From an uncultured Gammaproteobacteria bacterium (GTDB lineage Bacteria; Patescibacteriota; Microgenomatia; UBA1406), in assembly GCA_964414145.1 (NCBI GenBank), contig CAYPVH010000002.1, positions 59,369 through 123,368 on the forward strand: DNA of 64,000 bases, read 5' to 3'. A model generated the notes under the pieces. The model ran no database searches, had not been told where the DNA came from, and was given only the letters and a program-made list of their open reading frames with translations. Shown piece after piece: positions 4,097 through 14,834 of the stretch. Within the stretch, counting starts at the first letter, position 1. Every line of letters begins with the position of its first letter. The position numbers were made by a program, and so were the translations under genes.

Positions 4097-4795
4097 CTAA
4101 CTAAACTGCAGCATTTTTTCGATTTTACTAAGGTTATGAAGCGTGTAATTTTTGTTTTTGTTTGAAAGCAAATTATTGTCTATTAATTTATATATTTCGC
4201 GGCTGGCGGTTTCGCGCGAAACACCGGCTAAAGCAGCAATTTCTTTATGAGTTATAGAAGATTTTATTTCGGCTTGGTTATCTGTTTTTTTACTGTTTAC
4301 AATTACATAACTATAAAAGGCCATTAATACTTTGGTGGTTGACAGGCTTAGCATTTGGTTTTCCAGGCACTTTAGGTTATATAAAGACCGCTGAACCAAT
4401 CTTTGCAAAACGGCTTCCAGTAAAAAATTATCTTTTTTTACTGCGTCGCAGAGTGTTTTTTCTGGTGTTTGCCAGGCTTCGGTATTTGAGCAGGCTTCGT
4501 AGTAATACTGACTGGTATGATTAAATAGATCGTATATGGGAAATACCTGGTTTTGCCCGAATAAGTTAAGTGTTTTTTCGTCGCCTTTGTGATCTAGCAA
4601 ATATTGGCGCACAATTCCTTTTTTTATTAAATAACAGTATTTATTACCACTGCTTTCAATATCAATAATTGTCTCGCCCTTCTTAAATTTAACGAGCTCA
4701 AATGTTTTGAAAAACTTACTTATATAATGGGCTAAATTGTTATCCACTATACAAAGTATAATACAATTCCTATTTTTGTATGTGACGATTGTCAC
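4097..4795 (-). CDS. Crp/Fnr-family transcriptional regulator (cNMP-binding domain + C-terminal HTH)
   Basis: 232 aa. FKKGETIIDIESSGNKYCYLIKKGIVRQY matches a cNMP-binding beta-roll, and the C-terminal THKEIAALAGVSRETASREIYKL is a Crp-type HTH. The track start is GTG 4795..4793, inside a CRP-type palindrome, so the true start is uncertain (an alternative GTG lies at 4747). Confidence 0.8.
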   Translation of the reverse strand: MTIVTYKNRNCIILCIVDNNLAHYISKFFKTFELVKFKKGETIIDIESSGNKYCYLIKKGIVRQYLLDHKGDEKTLNLFGQNQVFPIYDLFNHTSQYYYEACSNTEAWQTPEKTLCDAVKKDNFLLEAVLQRLVQRSLYNLKCLENQMLSLSTTKVLMAFYSYVIVNSKKTDNQAEIKSSITHKEIAALAGVSRETASREIYKLIDNNLLSNKNKNYTLHNLSKIEKMLQFS

Positions 4796-4796: not shown

Positions 4797-4903
4797 ATAC
4801 AGGAATTATTATAGTCATAAAATATTTTGTAAAAGTATTTTTACTATATTACAGAAAAATATGAGCAAACAATGTAATAAGGGTTGAATTAGATACTTTT
4901 TAT

Positions 4904-4923
4904 AAATACACAACATTTGTGTT
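4904..4923 (+). promoter_or_regulatory. Copy 1 of a shared 20-nt box AAATACACAAnATTTGTGTT (core palindrome ACACAAnATTTGTGT), abutting the -35 of the adhesin operon
   Basis: AAATACACAACATTTGTGTT is 19/20 identical to 13515..13534. The core ACACAAC-A-TTTGTGT at 4908..4922 is a 7-bp inverted repeat with one mismatch. Confidence 0.55.
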
Positions 4924-4951
4924 TGACAAAATTTGACCAAGGTTATAGTAT
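4923..4951 (+). promoter_or_regulatory. Putative promoter of the adhesin operon (TTGACA-17-TAGTAT, or TTGACA-15-TATAGT)
   Basis: TTGACA at 4923..4928. TAGTAT at 4946..4951 and TATAGT at 4944..4949 are the two -10 options. The ORF-track TTG start at 4917 reads through this promoter. Confidence 0.35.
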
Positions 4952-4982: not shown

Positions 4983-5399
4983 ATGTTTCTAAAAAATAAA
5001 ACCAGGGGCAGGTTGTTTAGCTTTTTATCACTTTTGTCTATTTTATTTCAGTTACTTACTCCTTATTTGCTTTTTTTACCACCTGGAGTTGCTTTAGCTA
5101 AAGAAACAATAGTAGCAAAAGTAGACTTTGATAACAACACCAACGAATTTTTAGTAGAAGTGAATAGCAAAGAAAACCTAGAGTATTTGTTGGTATACAG
5201 GCAAAACGAAAAAAACGAAGCAATCACAGGTAAAGTAGAAAATGCAGAAGCCGATTTTAACAAAAAATTATTTGCCGGAACTTGTTCTGCAAACGGGGCT
5301 TGTGTTAGCCATAAAGTAGAAAAAGGTATTTTAAAATTTATATTGAAAGCCAGAATTATTTTAATGCCAAAAGATTTATTATTGAAAATGGAAAGCTAA
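4983..5399 (+). CDS. Signal-peptide-bearing small ORF, probably the displaced 5' end of the giant adhesin gene
   Basis: ATG 4983 gives MFLKNKTRGRLFSFLSLLSILFQLLTPYLLFLPPGVALAKE (n-h-c signal peptide) and then a beta-rich domain. The adhesin reading frame is already open from 5315, so the two frames overlap across an A5 run at 5320..5324. Confidence 0.5.
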   Translation: MFLKNKTRGRLFSFLSLLSILFQLLTPYLLFLPPGVALAKETIVAKVDFDNNTNEFLVEVNSKENLEYLLVYRQNEKNEAITGKVENAEADFNKKLFAGTCSANGACVSHKVEKGILKFILKARIILMPKDLLLKMES

Positions 5400-5428
5400 A
5401 TATAGTTTATGAATCGGATGAGGGCGAT

Positions 5429-8400
5429 ATGGAACTAGCAAGCCAAGAAGAAGACTGGCTAAAAACTGATAACGAGATTACCCCCACACCAATTCCAGGA
5501 CCAACACAAATTATACAACCTACAATTATTCCAACCCCAACCGGGGACATATTAAATGAAGGAATTAACATAGAAAGAAACCCAACCCCATATTCTGAAA
5601 TAGGAACGGTTGAAACAGAGGTTGTGGAAACGTATCAATGTTTGCAGAATTCATTAAACGGTTGTGTTATTACAGATAAAGAAGATTACTCGCCGAATGA
5701 AGTGGTTTTAATTTCTGGACATGGGTTTATTCCTAACACTCCATATGTTTTGGTAATTGCGTCTGAAACGGGGCAACTAGCGGAACAATTTGGAATTTTA
5801 ACCAATAAAGAAGGCAGTTTTGAATATAGTTATCAACTAGATGGTACATACCGACCAAACTATAGCGTGTTTGTTTATGATTCAAATAATAACTTAGTTA
5901 CAGAAACAAGCTTTACGGATTCGCCACCGTCTGAATGTATCTCTGATACTGATTGGGCAGATGATGAACCTGGACAAAAAGACTTAACAGAAATGTGCAC
6001 AGATTATTCCGAATGGTCAGCTTTTTTAGAGGTCTCTTGGAATTGGGATGATATAGCCTGGAGTGGTAATAACACCGGTGATGCATGTAGTCTTTTTGAT
6101 AATGACAATGATGGATATGCTAACTATGCAGTTTGTGTTCAAGTAACTGATGAGCCTGCTGTTTTTGATTCACAATATTTGTACACCTGTAATGATACAA
6201 GTGCTGTTCGATGTTTTGATAGCACTCTAAAAACCCCAAGCGCTAACACAATATGTGTTGCATCAGTACAATCTGGTACCAACCCTTTCGATTTAGGAAG
6301 TGATACAGTTGCAGATTGTAAAATTAACACTTTAGATGTTGGTGGAAGTCCTACGATTCTATTAGATGTATGTTCATATCCATCAGCTCAACCAAATTCT
6401 GATCCTTCTGATTGTATTGTTGCTTCAACAGCAAATCAAACTGGATTTCTCGAAGTTAAGAAAGTAATAGATCCTTCAACCGATTCTGGTTTGTTCAATT
6501 TACAGATTGATGGTACAACATATAAATATGACGCAGGAAATAACGGGTCGACTGGAGAAAAAATCGTTGACGCCGGCAATCATATAATTAGAGAAACAGC
6601 CGGAACGGCAACCACTTTAACTGACTATACATCTTCAATTGAATGTAAAGATGCTAATGGTTCAGGATCGATTGTTGCCCAAATCACTGGTCCCGGACCC
6701 TTAACAGTTCCGGTTGAAAATAATGATGATATAGTTTGTACCATTACAAATACTTATCAAGGGGGCTCTGTTACAATAATTAAAGATAGGGTTCCAGACT
6801 ATCCAGAATCTTTTCAATTTACCGGGGATTTGGGTAGTTTCGATTTATCTGGTGATAGTACAGCTGTTGACTACCAAAAAACATTTACTAATTTAACACC
6901 TCAAACCTATGTAGTCACCGAGCTTGAACCAAGCGAAACATATCTAGACTCAATTAGTTGTACAGGTGACACCGATAACGGGACGGTAGTTAATCTTGAT
7001 AATAATAGTGTCAATATTGATTTAGACCAGAACGAAGATATTGTTTGTACATTTACAAACAAAGAAAGAGGTTCAATCTCCGGAACTAAATGGGAAGATA
7101 TGAATGGTAATGGAATTAGAGATGCAGAGGATTTACCAATTTCCGGCTGGACGGTTAAACTTGATAAAGATGCAGATGGCGTAATAGACCAAACTACTAC
7201 GACTGATGGTAACGGTGATTATACTTTTAACAATCTTCTCCCCGGAACATATAAAGTATTGGAAGAATCGCCTTACCCTTGGAATGTTTCCTACCCTTCG
7301 TCGGGTATAAATTATTATAACGGAATTGTTTTAACTACTGGTGATAGTCTAACTGGCTATAATTTTGGAAATTATAAAAATGGCGAAATCAAAGGCTATA
7401 AATGGGAGGATATTAATGGTGATGGCAATAAAGATAATGGTGAGGGAGCGCCAGATAATCAGTGGCAGATTAAATTATGGAAAGAAATAGATGGGATACC
7501 GGTAGATCAAGGTAGCTCAGTTTATTCTAATCCAACTACTGGAGCTTTTACTTTCGGTGTCACGCCAGGAACTTATTATTTAAGTGAGGTTATGCAGGAA
7601 GGTTGGCTGCAGACTTATCCGACCAACGCAGTTTTGGCCCCTGATGGAGTTACTAGGTTACTTGGACCAATAGTGATCACCTCGGGTTCAATTAGCGAAA
7701 ATAACAATTTTGGTAATGTTCAACAAGGTTCTATTTCAGGATACAAATATGAAGATATGGATGGCGACTTGTCAACAACAGAAGATTTAAGTAGTATTTT
7801 TGGCTGGACAATAGATCTATATGAATGTATTGATGATTTTGATAATTGTCTTATTAAAGAAACTACTCAAACAGACAATGATGGCTATTATATTTTTGAA
7901 AACTTGTTGCCCGGTCTTTACAAAATTATAGAAGCATTACCGGGTGGCTGGACAAACATACTACCAATAACAATAAACGGGGAATTAACAGCAGGTGAAG
8001 TAAGCACTGAAAACAATTTCATCAACTTTGAAAACGTGTCTATAACCGCATGCAAAGTTGAAGATAACGACGGTCTTGTAAACACAACCGAAGACCAAAC
8101 TTTTGTTAACGGCTGGGAAGTAACCTTAACAAAAAATGATATATCAGATACTCAACTAACAGAAACGGATGGTTGTTATACTTGGAGTAATTTAGAACCA
8201 GGAGATTATGCACTTTCAGAAGAAGCAAGAAATGGCTGGACAAACTTAAATAGCTCAACACATAGTTTTGGAATTGTTGAAAGTGGGCAGAGTTATAGTT
8301 ATACATTTGTCAATAGCCGTCTTGGTGAAATTATTGTTGAAAAGCAGGTTTTGCCAGATGGTTACTATCAAACTTTTGCTTTTAATGGCGAAGTTTCGGG

Positions 8401-11400
8401 TATGATTGGCGATGGTCAGCAACTATCAAAAACTGTGTTACCAGGTACTTACACTGTTTCCGAATCTATGCCCTATACTTCAGGTTATCAACTAAAAAAT
8501 ATTGTTTGTGATGATGATAATTCAGTTTCTAATATTCAAGCAGGAACTGCTACATACATAGTAGAGCCGGGAGAAACTGTTAAGTGTACTTTTACAAATG
8601 AAATGTTTGGTTCAATAACTGCCAAAAAATTTCACGATTATAATCAAGATGAAACTCAGAATGCAGGTGAACCTAGTCTGCCAAATTGGCAAATGAGCTT
8701 TTATGACGGTTTTGGCTGTGAAGAAGAAAATAATACGTGGAGCAGTACAACGGGCACTGACGGGACTGTTACAATGTATTCATTACTCCCGGGTGAATAT
8801 TCTGTGAAAGAGAGATTAGTAGAGGGGTGGATGAATACTACAGACTTATGCCAGAACATAATAGTTGCTCCTGGTGAAAACACGTCTGTAGATTTTGGAA
8901 ATTTGCAACTAGGATCATTAATTGTTCACAAATTTGAAGATATAGATGGGGATGGTGTCAAACAAGCAAGCGAGCCCTATGTTGAAAATTGGAGAATGAC
9001 TTTGCATAACGGAAACAGTTGTACAAATCAGAATCAAATAGACGAAGGATTTACCAACGAGAACGGTGAGTATGAATTTTCAAATTTAACGCCTGGAATT
9101 TACAGTGTATTTGAATGGCCACAGAACGGTTGGACTAATTCCACAGGTAATCCTTGTAAAACCGTAACTTTAACAGCAAACCAAAATACAACAGTAGAAT
9201 TTGGGAATTATAAAACGGGCTTTATTGAAGGTAGAAAATTTGAAGATTTAAACAGTAGTGGCTCTTATAATACTGGTGAACCATTTTTACCCGGTTGGAC
9301 TATAAGACTTTATAATGATAAAGATGGTTCCTGGCAAGATAATGATATTGAAAGCATTACAGATGGATCGGGTTGGTATCGTTTTAGTGATTTAAGTATG
9401 GGTCGGTATAAAATTTGTGAAGTAATGCAATCTGGTTGGACACAGACTGTACCAACAGGGACAGTAAATAATGAGGAGTCTAATGAAGCGCCGCGCTGTC
9501 GTGTAGTTACGGTTGACGAGTCTGGTGAAGTATTGAGGCGGAATTTTGGCAATGTTCAGTATGGTTCAGTTCGGGTTCATAAGTTTGAAGATTTAAACAA
9601 CAATTCCATATTCAATGACGATGAGCCATTGCTTGATAATTGGGTTATTCAACTTGGTAATGAAACCAAAACAACCGTAAACGGAATAGCAGAATTTAAT
9701 AACCTAATTCCAGGTAATTACGGTCTTACTGAACTTACTTATCTTACAGATTGGCAATTAACAAACATTTATTGTGATAATGTTGATTTTGCCATAGATT
9801 CTAGTAATCAATATAATGTTACTGTTGCATCGGGTGAGAATGTTAATTGCTATGTAGGAAACTACCAACTTGGTTTAATTCAGGGGCGAAAATATTATGA
9901 CTATAACCAAAATGGCAGTAAAGATAGCGATGATACCTGGTTAAAAGGTTGGGTTATTAGATTGTATAAAGATGTAAGAGGAATTTGGCAAGACATTAGT
10001 GAAACCAGAACAACTAGTAATAATGGGCTGTTCAGATTTGAAAACCTTGAACCTGGTACTTACTACACATGTGAAGTACTTCAAGAAGGCTGGCAGCAAA
10101 CCGGACCGGTTTTGGGTGGCCAACGAATAGTTAACCAATCACCAAATAGTAATATTGATGAAGCGCCTGTGTGTTGGCAGTCTGTTATTAATCAATCCGG
10201 AACAAGAAGAACAGGGCGCCGATTTGGTAATGTCCAATATGGAAATATATTAGTAACAAAATATAACGATTTGAATAATAACGGTCAAAGAGATCCAGAA
10301 GAACTGGTATTACCAGATTGGGAAATCACCTTGAAAAAAGTGCAAGACTCAGATTATGCTGAATCGTCTCTTACAGATATTGAAGGAAGTGTTCAATTTA
10401 ATAACCTACTAGAAGCTGAATACTATTTGTCTGAAACCATGAAAGAGGGTTGGCAGCAAACAGATATTACTTGTTATTTAGAAGAACAAGAATCAGTTAC
10501 CGAAGATGTTCAGGTAGATTTAGTAGATCCATATGACTCAGAAAACGGACAATATTTGCTAAACCTTAATCCAGGAGAAACTTACAACTGTGAGATTGGT
10601 AACCACTATGCACCACCAATCCTAACTATAGCCAAATCCAACAACGTATGGCCAACAACCACAACACCAGGCAACTCAGTAGAATACAAAATTGTACTAG
10701 ATGTAGAAGATAATAATATTAAAAACGTAAAAGTAACCGACTTGCCCCCAGAAGGGTTTACCTATAGAGGGGGCAGTTACAAAGTGCTCTTAACTCGAGG
10801 AGGAACAACCACAGATATCACTAGCCAAGTGAATGAGCCGGTCTACCATTCACCAGGAGTATGGGGTCTTGGAGATCTGGAAAAAGATGACCAGGTTACC
10901 ATGATTTACACTGCTGACATTCAAGGCAGTACAGATTTTGGTTTGTATAAAGACTTAGCCTTTGCTTATGGTTGCCCCATTGGCCAAGAACAATGTAGTG
11001 TAACCGATGAGGAGGCAGTAGTTGCGAGCTCAGTAGACTCAGGTACCGCCGATGACGGGGTAGTAAACGAAAATTTTGTCGGTACAAAAGTTAACATAAA
11101 CCAAGAAACAACAGAAACAAACACCTTTAGTGTAGAAAAAGAAGAAGAGAAGAAAGAAGAGGGAAGTGTGCTAGGGGCCTCGACTGGTTTACCAGCTACC
11201 GGTTCAGTAACACTGATTACTCAAATTGCCCTGGTAAGCATGCTTGGCTCATTGTTACTATTAGCCATAAATTTACTCAGAAAGAAAAAGGCACATATTG
11301 TTTCTCTGCTAGTATTAACTGCTATCTTTTTTAACATTACTCAAGTAAACGCTGCTGAAATCACCAGTGTAAGATTAGAAGAGCCAAAGTCCCCAACAAA

Positions 11401-12289
11401 CGAGAATAGTTTTAATTTAGAGTTTGTTGCTATGGATATGGCAAATAGCCAAATTCAGGTTGAATGCTATAAAAAGGGCCCAACAGACTCAACATATACA
11501 AAGTTTGATACTACAAAAAATTTAAAGGCAGGCGGGAACAGCGGTCAGTGTGTAGTAAACTCAAGTGTTATGCCTGAGAATGGCTCGTACGGGTTTTATG
11601 TTATAGCAACCGGTTCGATGCAGGTAAGCAGTGAGTATGTAATTGTTGATTACAACTCAAGCAGACCAAGTACTCCTGTAAGTTATAGCAAAGATAAAAT
11701 AGACTCTTGTCACTATAAGATTAAATTCAAAACAGCCGACGACGGAGATAGGACTAATGGTGTAGAAATTTATAGGTCGGGAAACAATAGTTTTAATATC
11801 GACTCGAGTAATAAGATAGCCACAGTAAGCGTTGGTTCCAACGAAGAAAAAGAATATACAGACTCGGTTCCAGATTGCGGAAAGGATTACTACTATGCAA
11901 TTCGGGCAGTTGACCAGTTTGGCAATGTTTCTTCTGTGATTGGCGACAAAAATATAAAATTTATAACTAGCTCAACAACAATCACAACTACAGTTACCGA
12001 CACTACAGAAACGGAGGCAATTCCTGTAACAACTAATGAGTCTCAAGTTAGGCCAGATAATACAGATGAAACGGGTAGTTCACAAGAATCGGGTACAAAA
12101 AAAGACACTGAAGACAATACAGATATAGAAACAGAACAGGGTGAAGTACTGGGTGTTCAAGAACAAAAAAAATTATTGGATAAACTAAAGTCTTTTGTGG
12201 TTAAAAATAAAGGAATTGCTGGTTTAATTGTTTTGTTCGTAGTAGTATTGATTTATGTTCTTATTCAGAAAATCAAAAAAGCTAAGTAA
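5429..12289 (+). CDS. Giant cell-surface adhesin-like protein. Order of parts: PT linker, Cys-rich domain, prealbumin/SpaA-like folds, about 10 SdrD-B/Cna-B-like repeats, DUF11-like domain, internal LPATG sorting signal, then an FN3-containing membrane module
   Basis: 2286 aa. The recurring unit is G-S-I-x-G-x-K-[WF]-E-D-x-N-G-[ND]-G-x-x-D...GW...T-D-x-x-G-x-Y-x-F-x-N-L-x-P-G-x-Y. A DUF11-like stretch reads LTIAKSNNVWPTTTTPGNSVEYKIVL...VKVTDLPPEGF. LPATG is at residues 1921-1925. There is no N-terminal signal peptide; the product starts in a PT-rich linker (TPTPIPGPTQIIQPTIIPTPTG). Confidence 0.85.
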   Translation: MELASQEEDWLKTDNEITPTPIPGPTQIIQPTIIPTPTGDILNEGINIERNPTPYSEIGTVETEVVETYQCLQNSLNGCVITDKEDYSPNEVVLISGHGFIPNTPYVLVIASETGQLAEQFGILTNKEGSFEYSYQLDGTYRPNYSVFVYDSNNNLVTETSFTDSPPSECISDTDWADDEPGQKDLTEMCTDYSEWSAFLEVSWNWDDIAWSGNNTGDACSLFDNDNDGYANYAVCVQVTDEPAVFDSQYLYTCNDTSAVRCFDSTLKTPSANTICVASVQSGTNPFDLGSDTVADCKINTLDVGGSPTILLDVCSYPSAQPNSDPSDCIVASTANQTGFLEVKKVIDPSTDSGLFNLQIDGTTYKYDAGNNGSTGEKIVDAGNHIIRETAGTATTLTDYTSSIECKDANGSGSIVAQITGPGPLTVPVENNDDIVCTITNTYQGGSVTIIKDRVPDYPESFQFTGDLGSFDLSGDSTAVDYQKTFTNLTPQTYVVTELEPSETYLDSISCTGDTDNGTVVNLDNNSVNIDLDQNEDIVCTFTNKERGSISGTKWEDMNGNGIRDAEDLPISGWTVKLDKDADGVIDQTTTTDGNGDYTFNNLLPGTYKVLEESPYPWNVSYPSSGINYYNGIVLTTGDSLTGYNFGNYKNGEIKGYKWEDINGDGNKDNGEGAPDNQWQIKLWKEIDGIPVDQGSSVYSNPTTGAFTFGVTPGTYYLSEVMQEGWLQTYPTNAVLAPDGVTRLLGPIVITSGSISENNNFGNVQQGSISGYKYEDMDGDLSTTEDLSSIFGWTIDLYECIDDFDNCLIKETTQTDNDGYYIFENLLPGLYKIIEALPGGWTNILPITINGELTAGEVSTENNFINFENVSITACKVEDNDGLVNTTEDQTFVNGWEVTLTKNDISDTQLTETDGCYTWSNLEPGDYALSEEARNGWTNLNSSTHSFGIVESGQSYSYTFVNSRLGEIIVEKQVLPDGYYQTFAFNGEVSGMIGDGQQLSKTVLPGTYTVSESMPYTSGYQLKNIVCDDDNSVSNIQAGTATYIVEPGETVKCTFTNEMFGSITAKKFHDYNQDETQNAGEPSLPNWQMSFYDGFGCEEENNTWSSTTGTDGTVTMYSLLPGEYSVKERLVEGWMNTTDLCQNIIVAPGENTSVDFGNLQLGSLIVHKFEDIDGDGVKQASEPYVENWRMTLHNGNSCTNQNQIDEGFTNENGEYEFSNLTPGIYSVFEWPQNGWTNSTGNPCKTVTLTANQNTTVEFGNYKTGFIEGRKFEDLNSSGSYNTGEPFLPGWTIRLYNDKDGSWQDNDIESITDGSGWYRFSDLSMGRYKICEVMQSGWTQTVPTGTVNNEESNEAPRCRVVTVDESGEVLRRNFGNVQYGSVRVHKFEDLNNNSIFNDDEPLLDNWVIQLGNETKTTVNGIAEFNNLIPGNYGLTELTYLTDWQLTNIYCDNVDFAIDSSNQYNVTVASGENVNCYVGNYQLGLIQGRKYYDYNQNGSKDSDDTWLKGWVIRLYKDVRGIWQDISETRTTSNNGLFRFENLEPGTYYTCEVLQEGWQQTGPVLGGQRIVNQSPNSNIDEAPVCWQSVINQSGTRRTGRRFGNVQYGNILVTKYNDLNNNGQRDPEELVLPDWEITLKKVQDSDYAESSLTDIEGSVQFNNLLEAEYYLSETMKEGWQQTDITCYLEEQESVTEDVQVDLVDPYDSENGQYLLNLNPGETYNCEIGNHYAPPILTIAKSNNVWPTTTTPGNSVEYKIVLDVEDNNIKNVKVTDLPPEGFTYRGGSYKVLLTRGGTTTDITSQVNEPVYHSPGVWGLGDLEKDDQVTMIYTADIQGSTDFGLYKDLAFAYGCPIGQEQCSVTDEEAVVASSVDSGTADDGVVNENFVGTKVNINQETTETNTFSVEKEEEKKEEGSVLGASTGLPATGSVTLITQIALVSMLGSLLLLAINLLRKKKAHIVSLLVLTAIFFNITQVNAAEITSVRLEEPKSPTNENSFNLEFVAMDMANSQIQVECYKKGPTDSTYTKFDTTKNLKAGGNSGQCVVNSSVMPENGSYGFYVIATGSMQVSSEYVIVDYNSSRPSTPVSYSKDKIDSCHYKIKFKTADDGDRTNGVEIYRSGNNSFNIDSSNKIATVSVGSNEEKEYTDSVPDCGKDYYYAIRAVDQFGNVSSVIGDKNIKFITSSTTITTTVTDTTETEAIPVTTNESQVRPDNTDETGSSQESGTKKDTEDNTDIETEQGEVLGVQEQKKLLDKLKSFVVKNKGIAGLIVLFVVVLIYVLIQKIKKAK
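7070..10600 (+). repeat. Protein-level tandem array of about 10-11 diverged SdrD-B/Cna-B-like domains (about 95-115 aa each) with Ca-binding-like D/N-x-D/N-G loops
   Basis: Unit starts are GSISGTKWEDMNGNG, GEIKGYKWEDINGDG, GSISGYKYEDMDGD, VSITACKVEDNDG, GSITAKKFHDYNQDE, GSLIVHKFEDIDGDG, GFIEGRKFEDLNSSG, GSVRVHKFEDLNNNS, GLIQGRKYYDYNQNG and GNILVTKYNDLNNNG. The units have diverged at the DNA level, with no long identical DNA repeats seen. Confidence 0.6.
11189..11290 (+). other. Complete sortase sorting signal located internally (LPATG + 25-aa hydrophobic segment + RKKK)
   Basis: The codons tta cca gct acc ggt at 11189..11203 encode LPATG. They are followed by SVTLITQIALVSMLGSLLLLAINLL and RKKK, and the ORF continues with no stop. 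Confidence 0.8.
11291..12286 (+). other. Embedded second surface-protein module: signal-peptide-like segment, two FN3-like domains, T/E-rich linker, C-terminal TM + KIKKAK
   Basis: AHIVSLLVLTAIFFNITQVNA|AE has an AxA-like cleavage context. The FN3 hallmark is ...YYYAIRAVDQFGNVSS. The module ends GIAGLIVLFVVVLIYVLIQKIKKAK. Confidence 0.6.
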
Positions 12290-12914
12290 AACTGCCAATT
12301 CTAATTCTTTCCAGTTAAAAAATCTACTAAAATTAATCTTATTATTATCATTGATAATACTGTTTCTTATTTATTTTCCGGTTGTAAAAGAAGAAATACT
12401 TTACTTTTTTAATAAGCCTGATTTTACCCGCAGCGTATCGTTAACCAAAAAAGCCAACAAGAATGTTATAAAACCGGTTAATAACCAATTTGCCATTGTT
12501 ATACCAAAAATAAACGTTAATAGCTCTGTGGTTGAAAATGTTAGTCCATTCAATTCAGAAGAATACCAGACCGCCCTAACAAAAGGAGTAGCGCATTCAA
12601 TCACTTCGGCAGTACCCGGAAAAGGTCAGAATGTTTTTATCTTTGCTCATTCCGCAGGTAATTTTTACTATGCAAATAGGTTTAATGCAATTTTTTATTT
12701 AATTCACAAACTAGATCTGAATGACAACATTTATATTATATATAAAGGCAAAAAACATCATTATCAAGTTAAGAAAAAAATAATTGTAGATTCAAAAAGA
12801 ACAGATTATCTTTATCCACAGTTTAGTAATAACGAAAGCCTAACGCTTATGACTTGCTGGCCGCCGGGAACAACTTTAAAAAGGCTAATTGTAGTAGCCA
12901 ATATTGTAGAGTAA
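12255..12914 (+). CDS. Sortase (transpeptidase, N-terminal membrane anchor)
   Basis: 219 aa with a basic N-terminus and TM (LLKLILLLSLIILFLIYF). Catalytic contexts are IFAHS (His), TLMTCWPPG (TLxTC Cys) and KRLIVV (Arg). The ATG at 12255 overlaps the adhesin 3' end by 35 nt. Confidence 0.85.
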   Translation: MFLFRKSKKLSKTANSNSFQLKNLLKLILLLSLIILFLIYFPVVKEEILYFFNKPDFTRSVSLTKKANKNVIKPVNNQFAIVIPKINVNSSVVENVSPFNSEEYQTALTKGVAHSITSAVPGKGQNVFIFAHSAGNFYYANRFNAIFYLIHKLDLNDNIYIIYKGKKHHYQVKKKIIVDSKRTDYLYPQFSNNESLTLMTCWPPGTTLKRLIVVANIVE

Positions 12915-12931
12915 TTGCTAATCTATTGTTA

Positions 12932-13492
12932 ATGCCAACAAAATTACAAAAAAAACTTACAGCTCTTACGTTGTTGGTATTAATATTGATACTCAACGAG
13001 CTATACCCAAATCTATCGGCTTATATTAATGACTTTTGGGAAGTTAATAATATTAAGCAAGAAAAGGTAGTTGTCAGTGACTTAAATAAAACTGTGGTAG
13101 TTGCGCGAGTTATTGATGGGGATACAGTTGAGTTAAGTACTGGTGAAAAAGTAAGGTATATTGGCATTGATACCCCCGAAGTTAATAACAATAGTTATAA
13201 GTCGCAGTGTTTTGCTACACAAGCAAAAGCGGCCAACAAAAGGCTGGTTTTAGGTAAACAAGTAATATTGGAAAAAGACGTGTCAAATACAGATAGGTAT
13301 GACAGGTTATTAAGGTATGTGTACGTTGTTAACAAAACAGGTAAAAAAATATTTATAAATAAACAATTAGTTAAGGAAGGTTACGCAACAGTCTTTACTT
13401 ACCCGCCAGATGTTAGATATGCAGAGGTATTTGTAAAGGCAGAAAAGCATGCTCGGAACAATAATAAAGGGCTATGGGCAATGTGTAGGTGA
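12932..13492 (+). CDS. Membrane-anchored thermonuclease (staphylococcal nuclease / SNase family)
   Basis: From ATG 12932: MPTKLQKKLTALTLLVLILIL (TM), then ARVIDGDTVEL...VRYIGIDTPE...DRYDRLLRYVY...LVKEGYA, the classic SNase signature. The track start at 12854 is an upstream extension overlapping the sortase. Confidence 0.8.
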   Translation: MPTKLQKKLTALTLLVLILILNELYPNLSAYINDFWEVNNIKQEKVVVSDLNKTVVVARVIDGDTVELSTGEKVRYIGIDTPEVNNNSYKSQCFATQAKAANKRLVLGKQVILEKDVSNTDRYDRLLRYVYVVNKTGKKIFINKQLVKEGYATVFTYPPDVRYAEVFVKAEKHARNNNKGLWAMCR

Positions 13493-13511
13493 TGTATAGT
13501 AAAAAATATGG

Positions 13512-13539
13512 TTGAAATACACAAAATTTGTGTTACAAT
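13512..13539 (+). promoter_or_regulatory. Promoter TTGAAA-16-TACAAT of the sortase-fusion gene, with the -10 box 8 nt from ATG 13548
   Basis: TTGAAA at 13512..13517 and TACAAT at 13534..13539. The ORF-track TTG start at 13512 is the -35 hexamer read as a codon. Confidence 0.55.
13515..13534 (+). promoter_or_regulatory. Copy 2 of the shared 20-nt box, filling the -35/-10 spacer (perfect palindrome ACACAAA-A-TTTGTGT)
   Basis: AAATACACAAAATTTGTGTT. The core at 13519..13533 is a perfect 7-bp inverted repeat around a central A. Confidence 0.6.
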
Positions 13540-13547
13540 TTACAATT

Positions 13548-14834
13548 ATGAGTATTAAAAAACACAACCAACAAACCCTTTCTGTTAAAAAAACTAATTC
13601 TATTGTTCAGAAGCTTTCTACATTTTTCCTTGTTGTTATTTTTTCACTTTTCCTTTTAACTACAACTAATGTTTGGGCAGATGACACGGCAACAGGTTCG
13701 GCTCAAATAGAATCAGAGAATACACCTACTCCAACAGAAACCGAAAAGAAATGCCCTGAGGGTTCAGATTGGGTAAAGGTTGATAATAATAAAGCAGGTG
13801 ACGATGATAATAGCGATGATGTCATTTCTTACACAGATCCAAGCGGAAATACTATTAGTGGGGTTTGTGTAAAGGGGGGTAAAGAAGGTACTAGCCCAAA
13901 TGGATACCTGGAATACTTTTATGAAGATGGTCCTTATATGTATGATGGTGCTTTATGTTTTACAATTTCGGGTATAGGAACCGATAAAGTTACAATTACA
14001 TATAGTGGAGATGGTGTTTGTGCAGAACTATCTCATGCTAGTTTTTATACAGGTGAGCCTACGCCCACTCCTACAGATGAAATAACTCCTACAGACGAGA
14101 TTACACCAACAGATGAAATAACACCAACAGAAGAAATAACAGAAGCGCCTACCCCAACAACTGAGCCAACTTCTACCCCAACACCAACGGAACAGGAAGA
14201 TAATAACGATGATGATGATAATGATGATAACAACGATGACAATAATGATGACAATAACGACTCTAATAATAATATTGGTGGCGCCGAATCTAACCCGGTG
14301 GTTTTAGCAGCTATCGAAACAACCAGGCCACAGGTACTTTCAGCTGTAGACAACTATAACCCGTTACTTGATTCCATTAAAAAAACAGGTAAAGTTTTGG
14401 GAATAAGTACAAAAAAGTTACCAAAAACCGGAGTTAAAGTAGCTAACTGGGCAATGCCTAAATACCCATCAAGTAATAAAGCTATGGAAAATTCCTACAT
14501 AGTTATCAATAAGATAGGAATTAACGCCCCACTGTACCAAGCCAGCAATATAGGTGAAGACTTGTTAGTAGGCGACAGTGAAATACTAAATACCGGCAAT
14601 ATGTATTACGGCCACAATTCTCGCTCTGCTTTTGAAAGTCTATGGCAGTTAAGAAAAGGCGACAGCATAATTGTAACCAAAAACGGTAACACCCAAGTAT
14701 ATACGGTTAATAGCACAGCATATATAAACGAAACAGAAGTTGAAAAAACCAATACGGGTAGCAACGAAATCAGTTTGGTAACCTGTGTTTTGGGTAATTC
14801 AAATTTAAGACTAGTAGTTAAAGCAAGTAAATAA
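13548..14834 (+). CDS. Sortase-domain fusion protein. Order of parts: signal/anchor, 4-Cys domain, PT repeats, D/N tract, LPKTG motif, C-terminal sortase catalytic domain
   Basis: 428 aa from ATG 13548. STFFLVVIFSLFLLTTTNVWA|DD is the signal. The C-terminal ~110 aa have YYGHNS (His), LVTC (Cys, TGT 14784..14786) and LRLVV (Arg), aligned like the neighbouring sortase. LPKTG lies about 20 aa before the catalytic domain. Confidence 0.8.
   Translation: MSIKKHNQQTLSVKKTNSIVQKLSTFFLVVIFSLFLLTTTNVWADDTATGSAQIESENTPTPTETEKKCPEGSDWVKVDNNKAGDDDNSDDVISYTDPSGNTISGVCVKGGKEGTSPNGYLEYFYEDGPYMYDGALCFTISGIGTDKVTITYSGDGVCAELSHASFYTGEPTPTPTDEITPTDEITPTDEITPTEEITEAPTPTTEPTSTPTPTEQEDNNDDDDNDDNNDDNNDDNNDSNNNIGGAESNPVVLAAIETTRPQVLSAVDNYNPLLDSIKKTGKVLGISTKKLPKTGVKVANWAMPKYPSSNKAMENSYIVINKIGINAPLYQASNIGEDLLVGDSEILNTGNMYYGHNSRSAFESLWQLRKGDSIIVTKNGNTQVYTVNSTAYINETEVEKTNTGSNEISLVTCVLGNSNLRLVVKASK
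14073..14144 (+). repeat. 4 x 18-bp in-frame tandem repeat encoding (T)DEITP units
   Basis: The units are acagatgaaataactcct / acagacgagattacacca / acagatgaaataacacca / acagaagaaataacagaa. Confidence 0.85.
14199..14273 (+). repeat. GAT/AAT/AAC/GAC low-complexity tract encoding a pure D/N acidic stretch
   Basis: It encodes DNNDDDDNDDNNDDNNDDNNDSNNN. Confidence 0.8.
14418..14432 (+). other. LPKTG pentapeptide inside the sortase-fusion protein, not followed by a TM or charged tail
   Basis: The codons tta cca aaa acc gga. The context is GKVLGISTKKLPKTGVKVANWAMPKYPSSNK, followed by the sortase domain. Confidence 0.8.

What the first reader, a model, noticed from the sequence alone, without database searches (positions are those of the whole stretch)
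4983..5431. Giant adhesin lacks a signal peptide, while the upstream ORF supplies one and joins its frame at an A5 run
The 2286-aa LPATG protein starts (MELASQEEDWLKTDNEITPTPIPGPTQ...) directly in a PT-rich linker with no signal peptide, yet sortase substrates must be exported. The preceding 138-aa ORF (ATG 4983) has a clear signal peptide and a beta-rich domain.

The adhesin frame is open upstream to 5315 and there encodes protein-like sequence (RYFKIYIESQNYFNAKRFIIENGKLNIVYESDEGD-MELAS). The two frames overlap over gtagAAAAAggt (A5 at 5320..5324). One extra A would read ...SHKVEKRYFKIY... and give a single ~2.4k-aa precursor with a signal peptide.

Options are a homopolymer sequencing or assembly error, a genuine frameshift (on/off switching of the adhesin by tract-length change), or ribosomal slippage on the A run.

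Counter-evidence: a GAGGG lies 4 nt before ATG 5429 and could serve as an SD for independent initiation.
Basis: partly seen in the sequence, partly recalled or inferred. Interest (0 to 1): 0.55.

Follow-up and report, generated by a model that had tools for sequence, protein, structure and literature searches.

The report
Frameshift-split giant surface adhesin gene
A 2,435-codon cell-surface adhesin gene of an uncultured Microgenomates (CPR) bacterium has lost one base in a short T/A tract near its start, which cuts its export signal off from the protein body; this is most likely ordinary gene inactivation, not a special decoding device.

Summary
ORF1 (4983-5399) carries a signal peptide. The 2286-aa adhesin ORF (5429-12289) has none. 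The adhesin frame is open from 5315.

The two ORFs were once one gene. 87 relatives were found, and most are single ORFs of 1000-2800 aa whose N-terminus aligns in one piece across the junction. One of them (P0125) sits in a syntenic locus. AlphaFold folds the repaired N-terminus as one beta-sandwich (pLDDT 92) with the break inside a strand.

The near-invariant RGILK motif is still read in the ORF1 frame after that run. Profile scoring places the missing base in T4A4T3 (5329-5339), and the A5 site scores 11 bits lower.

The same broken state appears in four assemblies from at least three read sets, so an assembly error is unlikely. No intact allele is on record.

T_TTA_AAA (5330-5336) is an in-phase -1 slippery heptamer that would restore the ancestral protein exactly. 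However, it has no stimulatory structure, it is not an efficient heptamer in E. coli, and it is not conserved. Other family members are broken nearby by different lesions.

Verdict: a genuine 1-nt deletion, giving an "off" or pseudogene state, with rare leaky slippage possible. Interest is low to moderate.

The parts
4923..4951 (+). Promoter-like site (TTGACA-17-TAGTAT) upstream of ORF1. Nothing comparable lies immediately upstream of ATG 5429; two weaker 9/12 matches lie at 5317-5344 and 5565-5594.
   Evidence: This is a consensus match only (10/12), and the number of sites in the region is not above the shuffled expectation.
4983..5099 (+). Signal peptide codons (aa 1-39, predicted cleavage VALA|KE). 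Homologous to the signal peptides of the intact family members (LLxQSxxPF motif).
   Evidence: AF2 models aa 4-30 as a helix.
4983..5336 (+). Part of ORF1 that is still in the ancestral frame (aa 1-118): the signal peptide plus the first two thirds of the N-terminal beta-sandwich, ending in KGILK.
   Evidence: Family alignment A1; profile scoring.
5320..5324 (+). Disfavoured.
   Evidence: Repair here scores 195.5 bits against 206.6 at 5333-5336 and removes the conserved Gly115.
5329..5339 (+). T4A4T3 tract, the most likely place of the 1-nt deletion. It contains the in-phase heptamer T_TTA_AAA (5330-5336), on which a -1 slip would give ...GILK-IYIES...
   Evidence: The syntenic orthologue reads CGT GGG ATT CTT AAA ATA GAG at this point.
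5337..5399 (+). Out-of-frame tail of ORF1 (FILKARIILMPKDLLLKMES) and its TAA stop.
   Evidence: There is no counterpart in the family alignment.
5336..5428 (+). Adhesin-frame codons upstream of ATG 5429 (IYIESQNYFNAKRFIIENGKLNIVYESDEGD). They encode the rest of strand 114-121 and strands 126-135 and 138-145 of the N-domain.
5429..12289 (+). Annotated 2286-aa adhesin ORF. It contains a PT-rich linker, a Cys-rich domain, SpaA-type and 8 SdrD_B repeats, and LPATG. Its Met1 aligns with an internal, mostly Leu position of the family (aa 150 of the repaired protein).
11189..11290 (+). Internal sorting signal: LPATG (11189-11203), a hydrophobic segment and RKKK.
11291..12289 (+). C-terminal module in the same ORF: a second signal-like segment (AHIVSLLVLTAIFFNITQVNA|AE), a ~280-aa domain (ITSVRLEEPKSPT...), and a terminal TM segment plus basic tail. 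Conserved in the family.
   Evidence: No Pfam or NCBIfam family matches.
12255..12914 (+). Sortase gene overlapping the adhesin 3' end by 35 nt. The same arrangement is seen in relatives L011 and L013.
13512..14834 (+). Second protein with a C-terminal sortase domain.

Best explanation
ORF1 and the 2286-aa ORF are two pieces of one 2435-codon gene. The gene encodes a sortase-processed giant surface adhesin of a Microgenomates-group (CPR/Patescibacteria) bacterium.

A single base has been lost from the T4A4T3 tract at 5329-5339. The most likely event is A5->A4 in TTA AAA ATT, inside the codons for the conserved RGILK-I beta-strand of the N-terminal Ig-like domain.

Consequences:
- ORF1 now makes a signal peptide plus a truncated domain with a 20-aa nonsense tail.
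- The adhesin body has no export signal. If it is made at all, by re-initiation at ATG 5429, it stays in the cytoplasm and cannot reach the sortase.
- The gene is therefore switched off, as a recent pseudogene or an "off" allele fixed in this population.

Full-length exported adhesin can arise only by reversion or by rare unprogrammed -1 slippage on T_TTA_AAA. That slip would happen to restore the ancestral sequence exactly.

Shown: one ancestral gene, the position of the lesion to within about 10 nt, and reproducibility across assemblies.
Inferred: loss of function, and the low level of slippage.
For: 1. Single-ORF relatives. An exhaustive HMMER search with the fused N-terminus gave 87 hits. 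Most are 1000-2800 aa proteins that align in one stretch, query aa 2-165 to their aa 2-165.
2. Alignment A1 (30 sequences) is gap-free across the junction. R114, G115 and K118 are >=90% conserved, and Met150 (ATG 5429) sits at an internal, mostly Leu position.
3. Synteny. In L011/L012 the orthologue P0125 (1300 aa, one ORF) lies between the same 891-aa LCAT-like hydrolase and an overlapping sortase, followed by FtsW and IleRS.
4. Structure. AF2 of the repaired N-terminus gives mean pLDDT 92.2 and one beta-sandwich. The junction after K118 lies inside strand 114-121, and strands 126-135 and 138-145 are encoded upstream of ATG 5429.
5. Site. Profile scores peak at 5333-5336 at 206.6 bits, against 195.5 for A5. 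ORF1 alone scores 139.7.
6. The lesion is real. Identical T4A4T3 is found in Logan SRR12447095, JGI 3300076582 and JGI 3300076587, and the last differs by a SNP at 6159.
7. Internal control. All 23 A>=5 runs, 7 T>=5 runs and 95 A/T>=4 runs inside the 6.9-kb ORF are in frame, and 93% of the window is covered by long ORFs.
8. No signs of programming. There is no downstream structure (z +0.77 and +0.85), the organism shows no SD usage, and in E. coli U_UU.A_AA.A is not among the efficient heptamers, which are V_VV.A_AA.R and U_UU.A_AA.G (PMC4066793).
9. Other family members are broken in the same domain by unrelated lesions: a 1-nt deletion (L005/L006), a 20-nt tandem duplication (L007), a 5-nt tandem duplication (L014) and an in-frame TAA (L008). 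That pattern fits mutational inactivation and not one conserved recoding signal.
Against: - The 6.9-kb downstream ORF has no second lesion, so the break is recent or the ORF is still under selection.
- The tract left behind is a perfect in-phase X_XXY_YYZ heptamer whose slip product equals the ancestral protein. However, any A5->A4 deletion after a TTA codon would produce this.
- Another family member (P0179) is shifted by -1 at the very same Lys codon.
- Read-level heterogeneity could not be examined.
- Nothing is known about frameshifting efficiency on CPR ribosomes.
Confidence: 0.7

Rival explanations
1. Ribosomal -1 frameshifting on T_TTA_AAA (5330-5336) is used to make biologically meaningful amounts of the signal-peptide-bearing full-length adhesin. 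This could be a programmed device or a tolerated "translational correction" of the indel, with ORF1 as the default product.
For: - The heptamer is in the exact phase, and the slip product GILK-IYIES equals the family consensus.
- The 0-frame stop lies 60 nt downstream.
- The 2286-codon downstream ORF is intact.
- P0179 has a -1 shift at the same Lys codon, with A_AAA followed directly by TAA.
- Translational correction of indels is a recognised category (abstract of PMC5009743).
Against: - There is no stimulatory structure downstream and no SD usage.
- In E. coli, heptamers without stimulators give at most about ten times a ~0.05% background, and U_UU.A_AA.A is not in the efficient class.
- Orthologues, including the syntenic one, are unshifted single ORFs.
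- Other split members carry lesions that a -1 slip cannot repair: 5-nt and 20-nt duplications and a TAA.
Confidence: 0.12
2. The break is one state of a reversible on/off switch of the adhesin in the population. Alleles with 4 or 5 A (or T) coexist or alternate under selection, for example from phage or from host attachment.
For: - The lesion lies in a homopolymer tract.
- Surface adhesins are typical targets of such switching (general knowledge).
- At least five family lineages carry independent 5' lesions, two of them tandem duplications, which revert easily.
Against: - The tracts are only 4 nt long, far below the 7-8 nt or more typical of contingency loci (general knowledge).
- All four assemblies show the same state.
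- No intact allele turned up in the 5.8-billion-cluster search.
- The gene contains longer runs (A7 at 12097, A8 at 12165) that are stable.
Confidence: 0.1
3. Homopolymer sequencing or assembly error: the real genome has an intact gene.
For: The lesion is a single-base difference in a homopolymer context.
Against: - It is reproduced in four assemblies made by different pipelines (the NCBI MAG, Logan and two JGI assemblies) from at least three read sets, one of them with a distinguishing SNP.
- All 95 A/T>=4 runs in the rest of the ORF are in frame.
- Coding density in the window is 93%.
Confidence: 0.04
4. Two separately functional genes: a small secreted ORF1 protein, and an adhesin that starts at ATG 5429 (behind GAGGG) and is exported by another route.
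For: - GAGGG lies 4 nt before the ATG.
- A stand-alone N-domain protein exists in one relative (P0149, L009).
- In L014 the downstream ORF also begins at the equivalent MEL.
Against: - ORF1 lacks the last 2.5 strands of its domain and ends in an out-of-frame tail.
- Met150 is an internal position of the domain.
- This genome shows almost no SD motifs.
- Sortase substrates need Sec export, and the ORF has no N-terminal hydrophobic segment.
Confidence: 0.04

Closest known systems
Sortase-anchored SpaA / SdrD-type (prealbumin-like, Cna-B-like repeat) surface adhesins of Gram-positive bacteria
   Same: - 8 SdrD_B and 4 SpaA-type domains.
- An LPATG motif followed by a hydrophobic segment and a basic stretch.
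- An adjacent, overlapping sortase gene.
   Different: - The organism is a CPR (Microgenomates) bacterium.
- The signal peptide is separated from the body by a frameshift.
- LPATG is internal, 366 aa before the C-terminus, and is followed by a second signal-like segment, a ~280-aa domain and a TM anchor.
- The N-terminal domain has no Pfam family and no PDB match below E 1e-3.
Frameshift-inactivated or phase-off surface protein genes (homopolymer contingency loci of Neisseria, Haemophilus and Campylobacter; general knowledge)
   Same: A 1-nt change in a homopolymer near the 5' end uncouples the export signal from a surface protein.
   Different: - The tract is only 4 nt long.
- No length heterogeneity is seen among four assemblies.
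- Relatives are broken by non-repeat lesions as well.
Programmed -1 frameshift sites of dnaX and of IS1/IS3 transposases (X_XXZ_ZZN heptamer plus stimulators; PMC4066793)
   Same: An in-phase heptamer T_TTA_AAA lies in the overlap of two ORFs, the second in the -1 frame, and the fusion product is the meaningful protein.
   Different: - There is no stimulatory hairpin, pseudoknot or SD.
- The heptamer class is not efficient in E. coli.
- The shift is not conserved in orthologues.
The unnamed family of Microgenomates giant adhesins recovered here (P0125-P0210)
   Same: - Signal peptide with the LLxQSxxPF motif.
- N-domain with YAGTCS...C.xH.V.RGILK.
- The E-x-x-W-L helix, the PT linker, and the internal LPXTG followed by a C-terminal module.
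- A syntenic locus.
   Different: This copy is split by a 1-nt deletion. Most members are intact single ORFs.

Membership tests
Sortase-dependent LPXTG surface protein | N-terminal Sec signal peptide on the same polypeptide | tested here: not met
   ORF 5429-12289 has no N-terminal hydrophobic segment. The signal peptide is present only on ORF1, or on the repaired 2435-aa reading.
Sortase-dependent LPXTG surface protein | LPXTG motif followed by a hydrophobic segment and a basic tail at the C-terminus | tested here: inconclusive
   LPATG, a TM segment and RKKK are present at aa 1921-1954, but 332 further residues follow them. The motif is met; the C-terminal position is not.
Sortase-dependent LPXTG surface protein | Sortase gene in the locus | tested here: met
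   Pfam Sortase matches ORF 12255-12914 at E 4.6e-21 and ORF 13512-14834 at E 1.7e-13. The best NCBIfam match is class C, below its cut-off.
Sortase-dependent LPXTG surface protein | Repetitive Ig-like stalk domains (SpaA / SdrD_B) | tested here: met
   SdrD_B E 1.3e-70 (8 stretches); SpaA E 1.7e-44 (4 stretches).
Programmed -1 ribosomal frameshift site | Slippery X_XXY_YYZ heptamer in phase within the ORF overlap | tested here: met
   T_TTA_AAA at 5330-5336, with 0-frame codons TTA (5331-5333) and AAA (5334-5336).
Programmed -1 ribosomal frameshift site | Stimulatory element: a downstream hairpin or pseudoknot, or an upstream SD-like sequence | tested here: not met
   Downstream 100 nt folds at -10.4 kcal/mol, z +0.77. 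The region 5300-5400 gives z +0.85. The genome shows almost no SD usage.
Programmed -1 ribosomal frameshift site | Frameshift and motif conserved in orthologues | tested here: not met
   Most of the 87 relatives, including the syntenic one, are unshifted single ORFs. The split relatives carry different lesions.
Programmed -1 ribosomal frameshift site | Frameshift product demonstrated | not testable with these tools
   This needs proteomics or a reporter assay.
Phase-variable contingency locus | Hypermutable simple-sequence tract (homopolymer of about 7 nt or more, or tandem repeats) at the switch point | tested here: not met
Phase-variable contingency locus | Tract-length variation between or within populations | tested here: not met
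   Four consensus assemblies carry the identical tract, and no intact allele was found. Read-level variation is not testable here.
Microgenomates giant-adhesin N-domain family (unnamed) | Signal peptide plus a beta-sandwich with YAGTCS...RGILK, followed by the ExxWL helix and a PT linker, at the N-terminus of a giant adhesin | tested here: met
The alignment is gap-free. AF2 pLDDT is 92.2.

The most novel reading that the evidence does not exclude
The break is not decay. It is one instance of recurrent, selected switching-off of this adhesin in Microgenomates populations. At least five lineages carry independent lesions in the same N-terminal domain: two 1-nt deletions at the same Lys codon, 5-nt and 20-nt tandem duplications, and a nonsense codon. 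Residual expression in this lineage would come from -1 slippage on T_TTA_AAA, which regenerates the ancestral protein.
Probability: 0.12. Interest if true: 0.6.

Novelty: new member of a known kind. Interest (0 to 1): 0.3.

Why it matters
- Annotation. The two ORFs should be annotated as one frameshifted gene. A surface-protein census of this MAG would otherwise count a "secreted 138-aa protein" and a "cytoplasmic 2286-aa LPXTG protein", and neither exists as such.
- Biology. For CPR bacteria, whose episymbiotic life depends on attachment, it shows that a giant sortase-processed adhesin is off in a natural population. Relatives are often broken in the same region.
- What it does not show. It does not reveal a new decoding mechanism.
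- By-product. The family analysis showed that an LPXTG sorting signal lying about 370 aa upstream of the C-terminus, followed in frame by a second signal-like segment and a membrane-anchored domain, is conserved. That architecture is more unusual than the frameshift itself.

Tried and rejected
- Word-indexed homologue search with the fused 166-aa N-terminus found only ORF1 itself. The exhaustive HMMER search was needed.
- With a single protein, the genome-contig scan gave one irrelevant 35% match (L010), and the metagenome-contig scan gave nothing. Taxonomy was therefore inferred from IleRS hits.
- Pfam and NCBIfam have no family for the N-domain or for the C-terminal module.
- Foldseek against the PDB gave only generic Ig/FN3-like matches, all with E > 1e-3.
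- P0187 could not be located on a contig. P0190's contig ends just after its stop, so it is uninformative.
- Shift at the A5 run: rejected, 11 bits worse and it loses Gly115.
- Transcriptional slippage: rejected, because the runs of 4-5 nt are too short (general knowledge).
- An alternative genetic code: rejected, because no in-frame stop is involved in this window.
- GAGGG as a ribosome-binding site: rejected, because the genome lacks SD motifs.
- Apparent clustering of lesions at RGILK is not claimed as significant. Short ORFs are detectable only if they break at about aa 85-170, and other members break at about aa 85, 147 and 152 (P0204, P0203, P0153).
Full report
**1. Checking the observation.**
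ORF1 (ATG 4983 to TAA 5399, 138 aa) begins with a typical Sec signal: MFLKNKTRGRLFSFLSLLSILFQLLTPYLLFLPPGVALA|KE. The large ORF (5429-12289, 2286 aa) begins MELASQEEDWLKTDNEITPTP. A hydropathy scan of the large ORF finds hydrophobic segments only at aa 1925, 1955 and 2255, so it has no N-terminal export signal. The adhesin frame is open from 5315, and A5 is at 5320-5324. Pfam finds 8 SdrD_B and 4 SpaA-type domains in the large ORF. It also finds sortase domains in ORFs 12255-12914 and 13512-14834. The exception is that LPATG lies 366 aa before the C-terminus.

**2. Whether the two ORFs are one gene.**
The closest homologues of the adhesin's first 330 aa (P0001, P0003, P0004, P0005) are single ORFs that carry their own signal peptide followed by a PT-rich linker. 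P0009 aligns from the signal peptide through an N-terminal domain and an EEEDWL motif into the linker, across the junction, as one ORF.

An exhaustive HMMER search with the fused 166-aa N-terminus found 87 proteins at E <= 1e-3, 44 of them at E <= 1e-10. Most are 1000-2800 aa long and align in a single stretch, query aa ~2-165 to their own aa ~2-165.

One of these, P0125 (1300 aa), lies in a locus syntenic with the window. The locus has the same 891-aa LCAT-like hydrolase upstream, a sortase overlapping the 3' end, then FtsW and IleRS. Residue 1 of the window's adhesin ORF aligns with residue 149 of P0125. The ancestral gene was therefore a single ORF. The ATG at 5429 is an internal codon, and in the 30-sequence alignment that column is mostly Leu.

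**3. Where the break is.**
The family has a near-invariant motif...YAGTCS..G.C..H.V.RGILK(I/V/T).V.... The adhesin frame continues with IYIESQNYFNAKRFIIENGKLNIVYES, which matches IEVKSETWLMSKRFIVENGSLNLIEES in relatives.

I built a profile from the 29 relatives and scored every possible one-base repair between 5313 and 5396:

| Repair position | Tract | Score (bits) |
|---|---|---|
| 5333-5336 | A4 | 206.6 |
| 5329-5332 | T4 | 205.9 |
| 5337-5339 | T3 | 204.2 |
| none (ORF1 alone) | - | 139.7 |

The lesion therefore lies in T4A4T3 (5329-5339). The most likely event is TTA AAA ATT changing to TTA AAA TT, although the exact run cannot be resolved. The repaired gene encodes 2435 aa with no internal stop.

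AlphaFold2 on the repaired N-terminus with the family alignment gives mean pLDDT 92.2 and one beta-sandwich. Its strands are 45-50, 55-60, 66-74, 77-85, 92-97, 99-101, 107-109, 114-121, 126-135 and 138-145, followed by helix 154-162. The junction after K118 is inside a strand. Two and a half strands are encoded in the adhesin frame upstream of ATG 5429. The fold has no PDB match below E 1e-3 and no Pfam family.

**4. Whether the lesion is real.**
The ORF1 protein, with its out-of-frame tail, is encoded on a Logan contig from SRR12447095 and on contigs of two JGI metagenomes (3300076587 and 3300076582). All three carry the same T4A4T3. The 2177-nt JGI contig differs from the window by one SNP (6159 C>A, Ala244Asp), so it is not a copy of the same consensus.

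Within the adhesin ORF, all 23 A>=5 runs (up to A8), 7 T>=5 runs and 95 A/T>=4 runs are in frame. Long ORFs cover 93% of the window. A generic homopolymer error is therefore unlikely. No intact allele appeared in the word-indexed search, which would have picked up near-identical sequences. Read-level heterogeneity could not be examined.

**5. Whether the frameshift is programmed.**
The remaining sequence T_TTA_AAA (5330-5336) is an in-phase X_XXY_YYZ heptamer. A tandem -1 slip would give ...GILK-IYIES..., which is exactly the ancestral protein. This is intriguing, but it is also what any A5->A4 deletion after a TTA codon leaves behind. Several results argue against programming:
- The 100 nt downstream fold no better than shuffles (z +0.77), and 5300-5400 gives z +0.85.
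- In the systematic E. coli study, the efficient classes are V_VV.A_AA.R and U_UU.A_AA.G, which excludes U_UU.A_AA.A. Motifs without stimulators reach at most about ten times a ~0.05% background (PMC4066793).
- Orthologues are unshifted.

**6. Other broken family members.**
Several short hits turned out to be split genes.

| Protein | Locus | Lesion |
|---|---|---|
| P0179 | L005/L006 | Reads CAG GGG TTG ATA AAA TAA, then continues in the -1 frame with IKIDNANWF. This is a 1-nt loss at the same Lys codon. |
| P0182 | L007 | 20-nt tandem duplication (GGATTGTTAAAGACTAGAGT x2) across GLLKTRV. |
| P0189 | L014, syntenic | 5-nt tandem duplication (GGCTT x2) about 17 codons later. Its downstream 1732-aa ORF also starts at the equivalent MEL. 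|
| P0154 | L008 | In-frame TAA 9 codons after the Lys. |
| P0149 | L009 | A genuine stand-alone N-domain protein. |

The variety of lesions argues for mutational inactivation and against a shared recoding signal. I do not claim a hotspot. Only breaks at about aa 85-170 yield ORFs detectable by my query, and other members appear to break at about aa 85, 147 and 152.

**7. Organism.**
IleRS in the window is 60-63% identical to named proteins of Candidatus Roizmanbacteria and other Microgenomates-group or Patescibacteria MAGs. G+C content is about 33%.

**8. Verdict.**
This is a genuine 1-nt deletion in a short T/A tract that splits one giant sortase-processed adhesin gene. It detaches the signal peptide and two thirds of the N-terminal domain from the rest. 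The gene is most likely off, either as a recent pseudogene or as an "off" allele fixed in the sampled populations (confidence 0.7). Rare adventitious -1 slippage on T_TTA_AAA, or reversion, are the only routes to a functional product.

The rival explanations and their confidences are:
- meaningful -1 frameshifting: 0.12
- reversible population switching: 0.10
- sequencing or assembly artefact: 0.04
- two independent functional genes: 0.04

The proposed site and the predicted junction peptide are wrong, and the SD counter-argument does not apply.

**9. Side observation.**
In 22 of 26 long family members that have an LPXTG, the motif lies 352-391 aa before the C-terminus. It is followed by a TM segment, a basic stretch, a second signal-like segment ending in an AxA-like site, a conserved domain starting LS(V/I)RL.(E/Q)PKSPT, and a terminal TM anchor. 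Four members have a canonical C-terminal signal. The syntenic orthologue aligns continuously through this region. A full-text search for "internal LPXTG" found no paper. This looks like a conserved polyprotein layout and deserves its own follow-up.

Noticed in passing
window 11189-12289; also P0125, P0126, P0131 and 19 others: The LPXTG sorting signal is internal. LPATG, a TM segment and RKKK are followed in frame by a second signal-peptide-like segment (..VNA|AE), a ~280-aa domain of unknown family (ITSVRLEEPKSPT...) and a C-terminal TM anchor. The layout is conserved in 22 of 26 long family members with an LPXTG, and 4 have a canonical C-terminal signal. It suggests a polyprotein cut by sortase, and perhaps by signal peptidase. 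No family match and no paper were found.
   Followed up: partly
L005/L006 1440-1497; L007 2700-2790; L014 2870-2930; L008 2860-2890: Other members of the adhesin family are split in the same N-terminal domain by independent lesions: a 1-nt deletion at the same Lys codon, a 20-nt tandem duplication, a 5-nt tandem duplication (in a syntenic locus) and an in-frame TAA. The apparent clustering may be an ascertainment effect.
   Followed up: partly
window, upstream of all ~48 long ORFs: Besides GAGGG before ATG 5429, only 3 of the other 47 listed ORF starts have an SD-like motif within 3-13 nt, and those are weak. Leaders are A/T-rich. The organism seems not to rely on Shine-Dalgarno initiation.
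   Followed up: partly
window 4857: Two independent assemblies (Logan contig L001 and JGI contig L003) both begin exactly at window position 4857, just upstream of ORF1. The syntenic relative L011 lacks the divergently oriented Crp-like regulator gene (4097-4795) that sits here. This may be a strain-variable junction.
   Followed up: no
window 12255-14834: Downstream of the adhesin lie three genes: a sortase overlapping its 3' end by 35 nt, a 212-aa protein with a staphylococcal-nuclease domain (12854-13492), and a 440-aa protein whose only recognisable part is a C-terminal sortase domain. Both sortases score below every NCBIfam class cut-off, with class C the best match.
   Followed up: partly
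window 6159: This is the only difference between the window and the 2177-nt JGI contig L003. It is C>A, changing Ala244 to Asp in the adhesin ORF, and is evidence of population microdiversity.
   Followed up: yes
L009 2501-2866: One relative encodes the signal peptide plus N-domain as a genuine stand-alone 121-aa protein, followed by an unrelated zinc-ribbon gene. The N-domain can therefore exist on its own.
   Followed up: no
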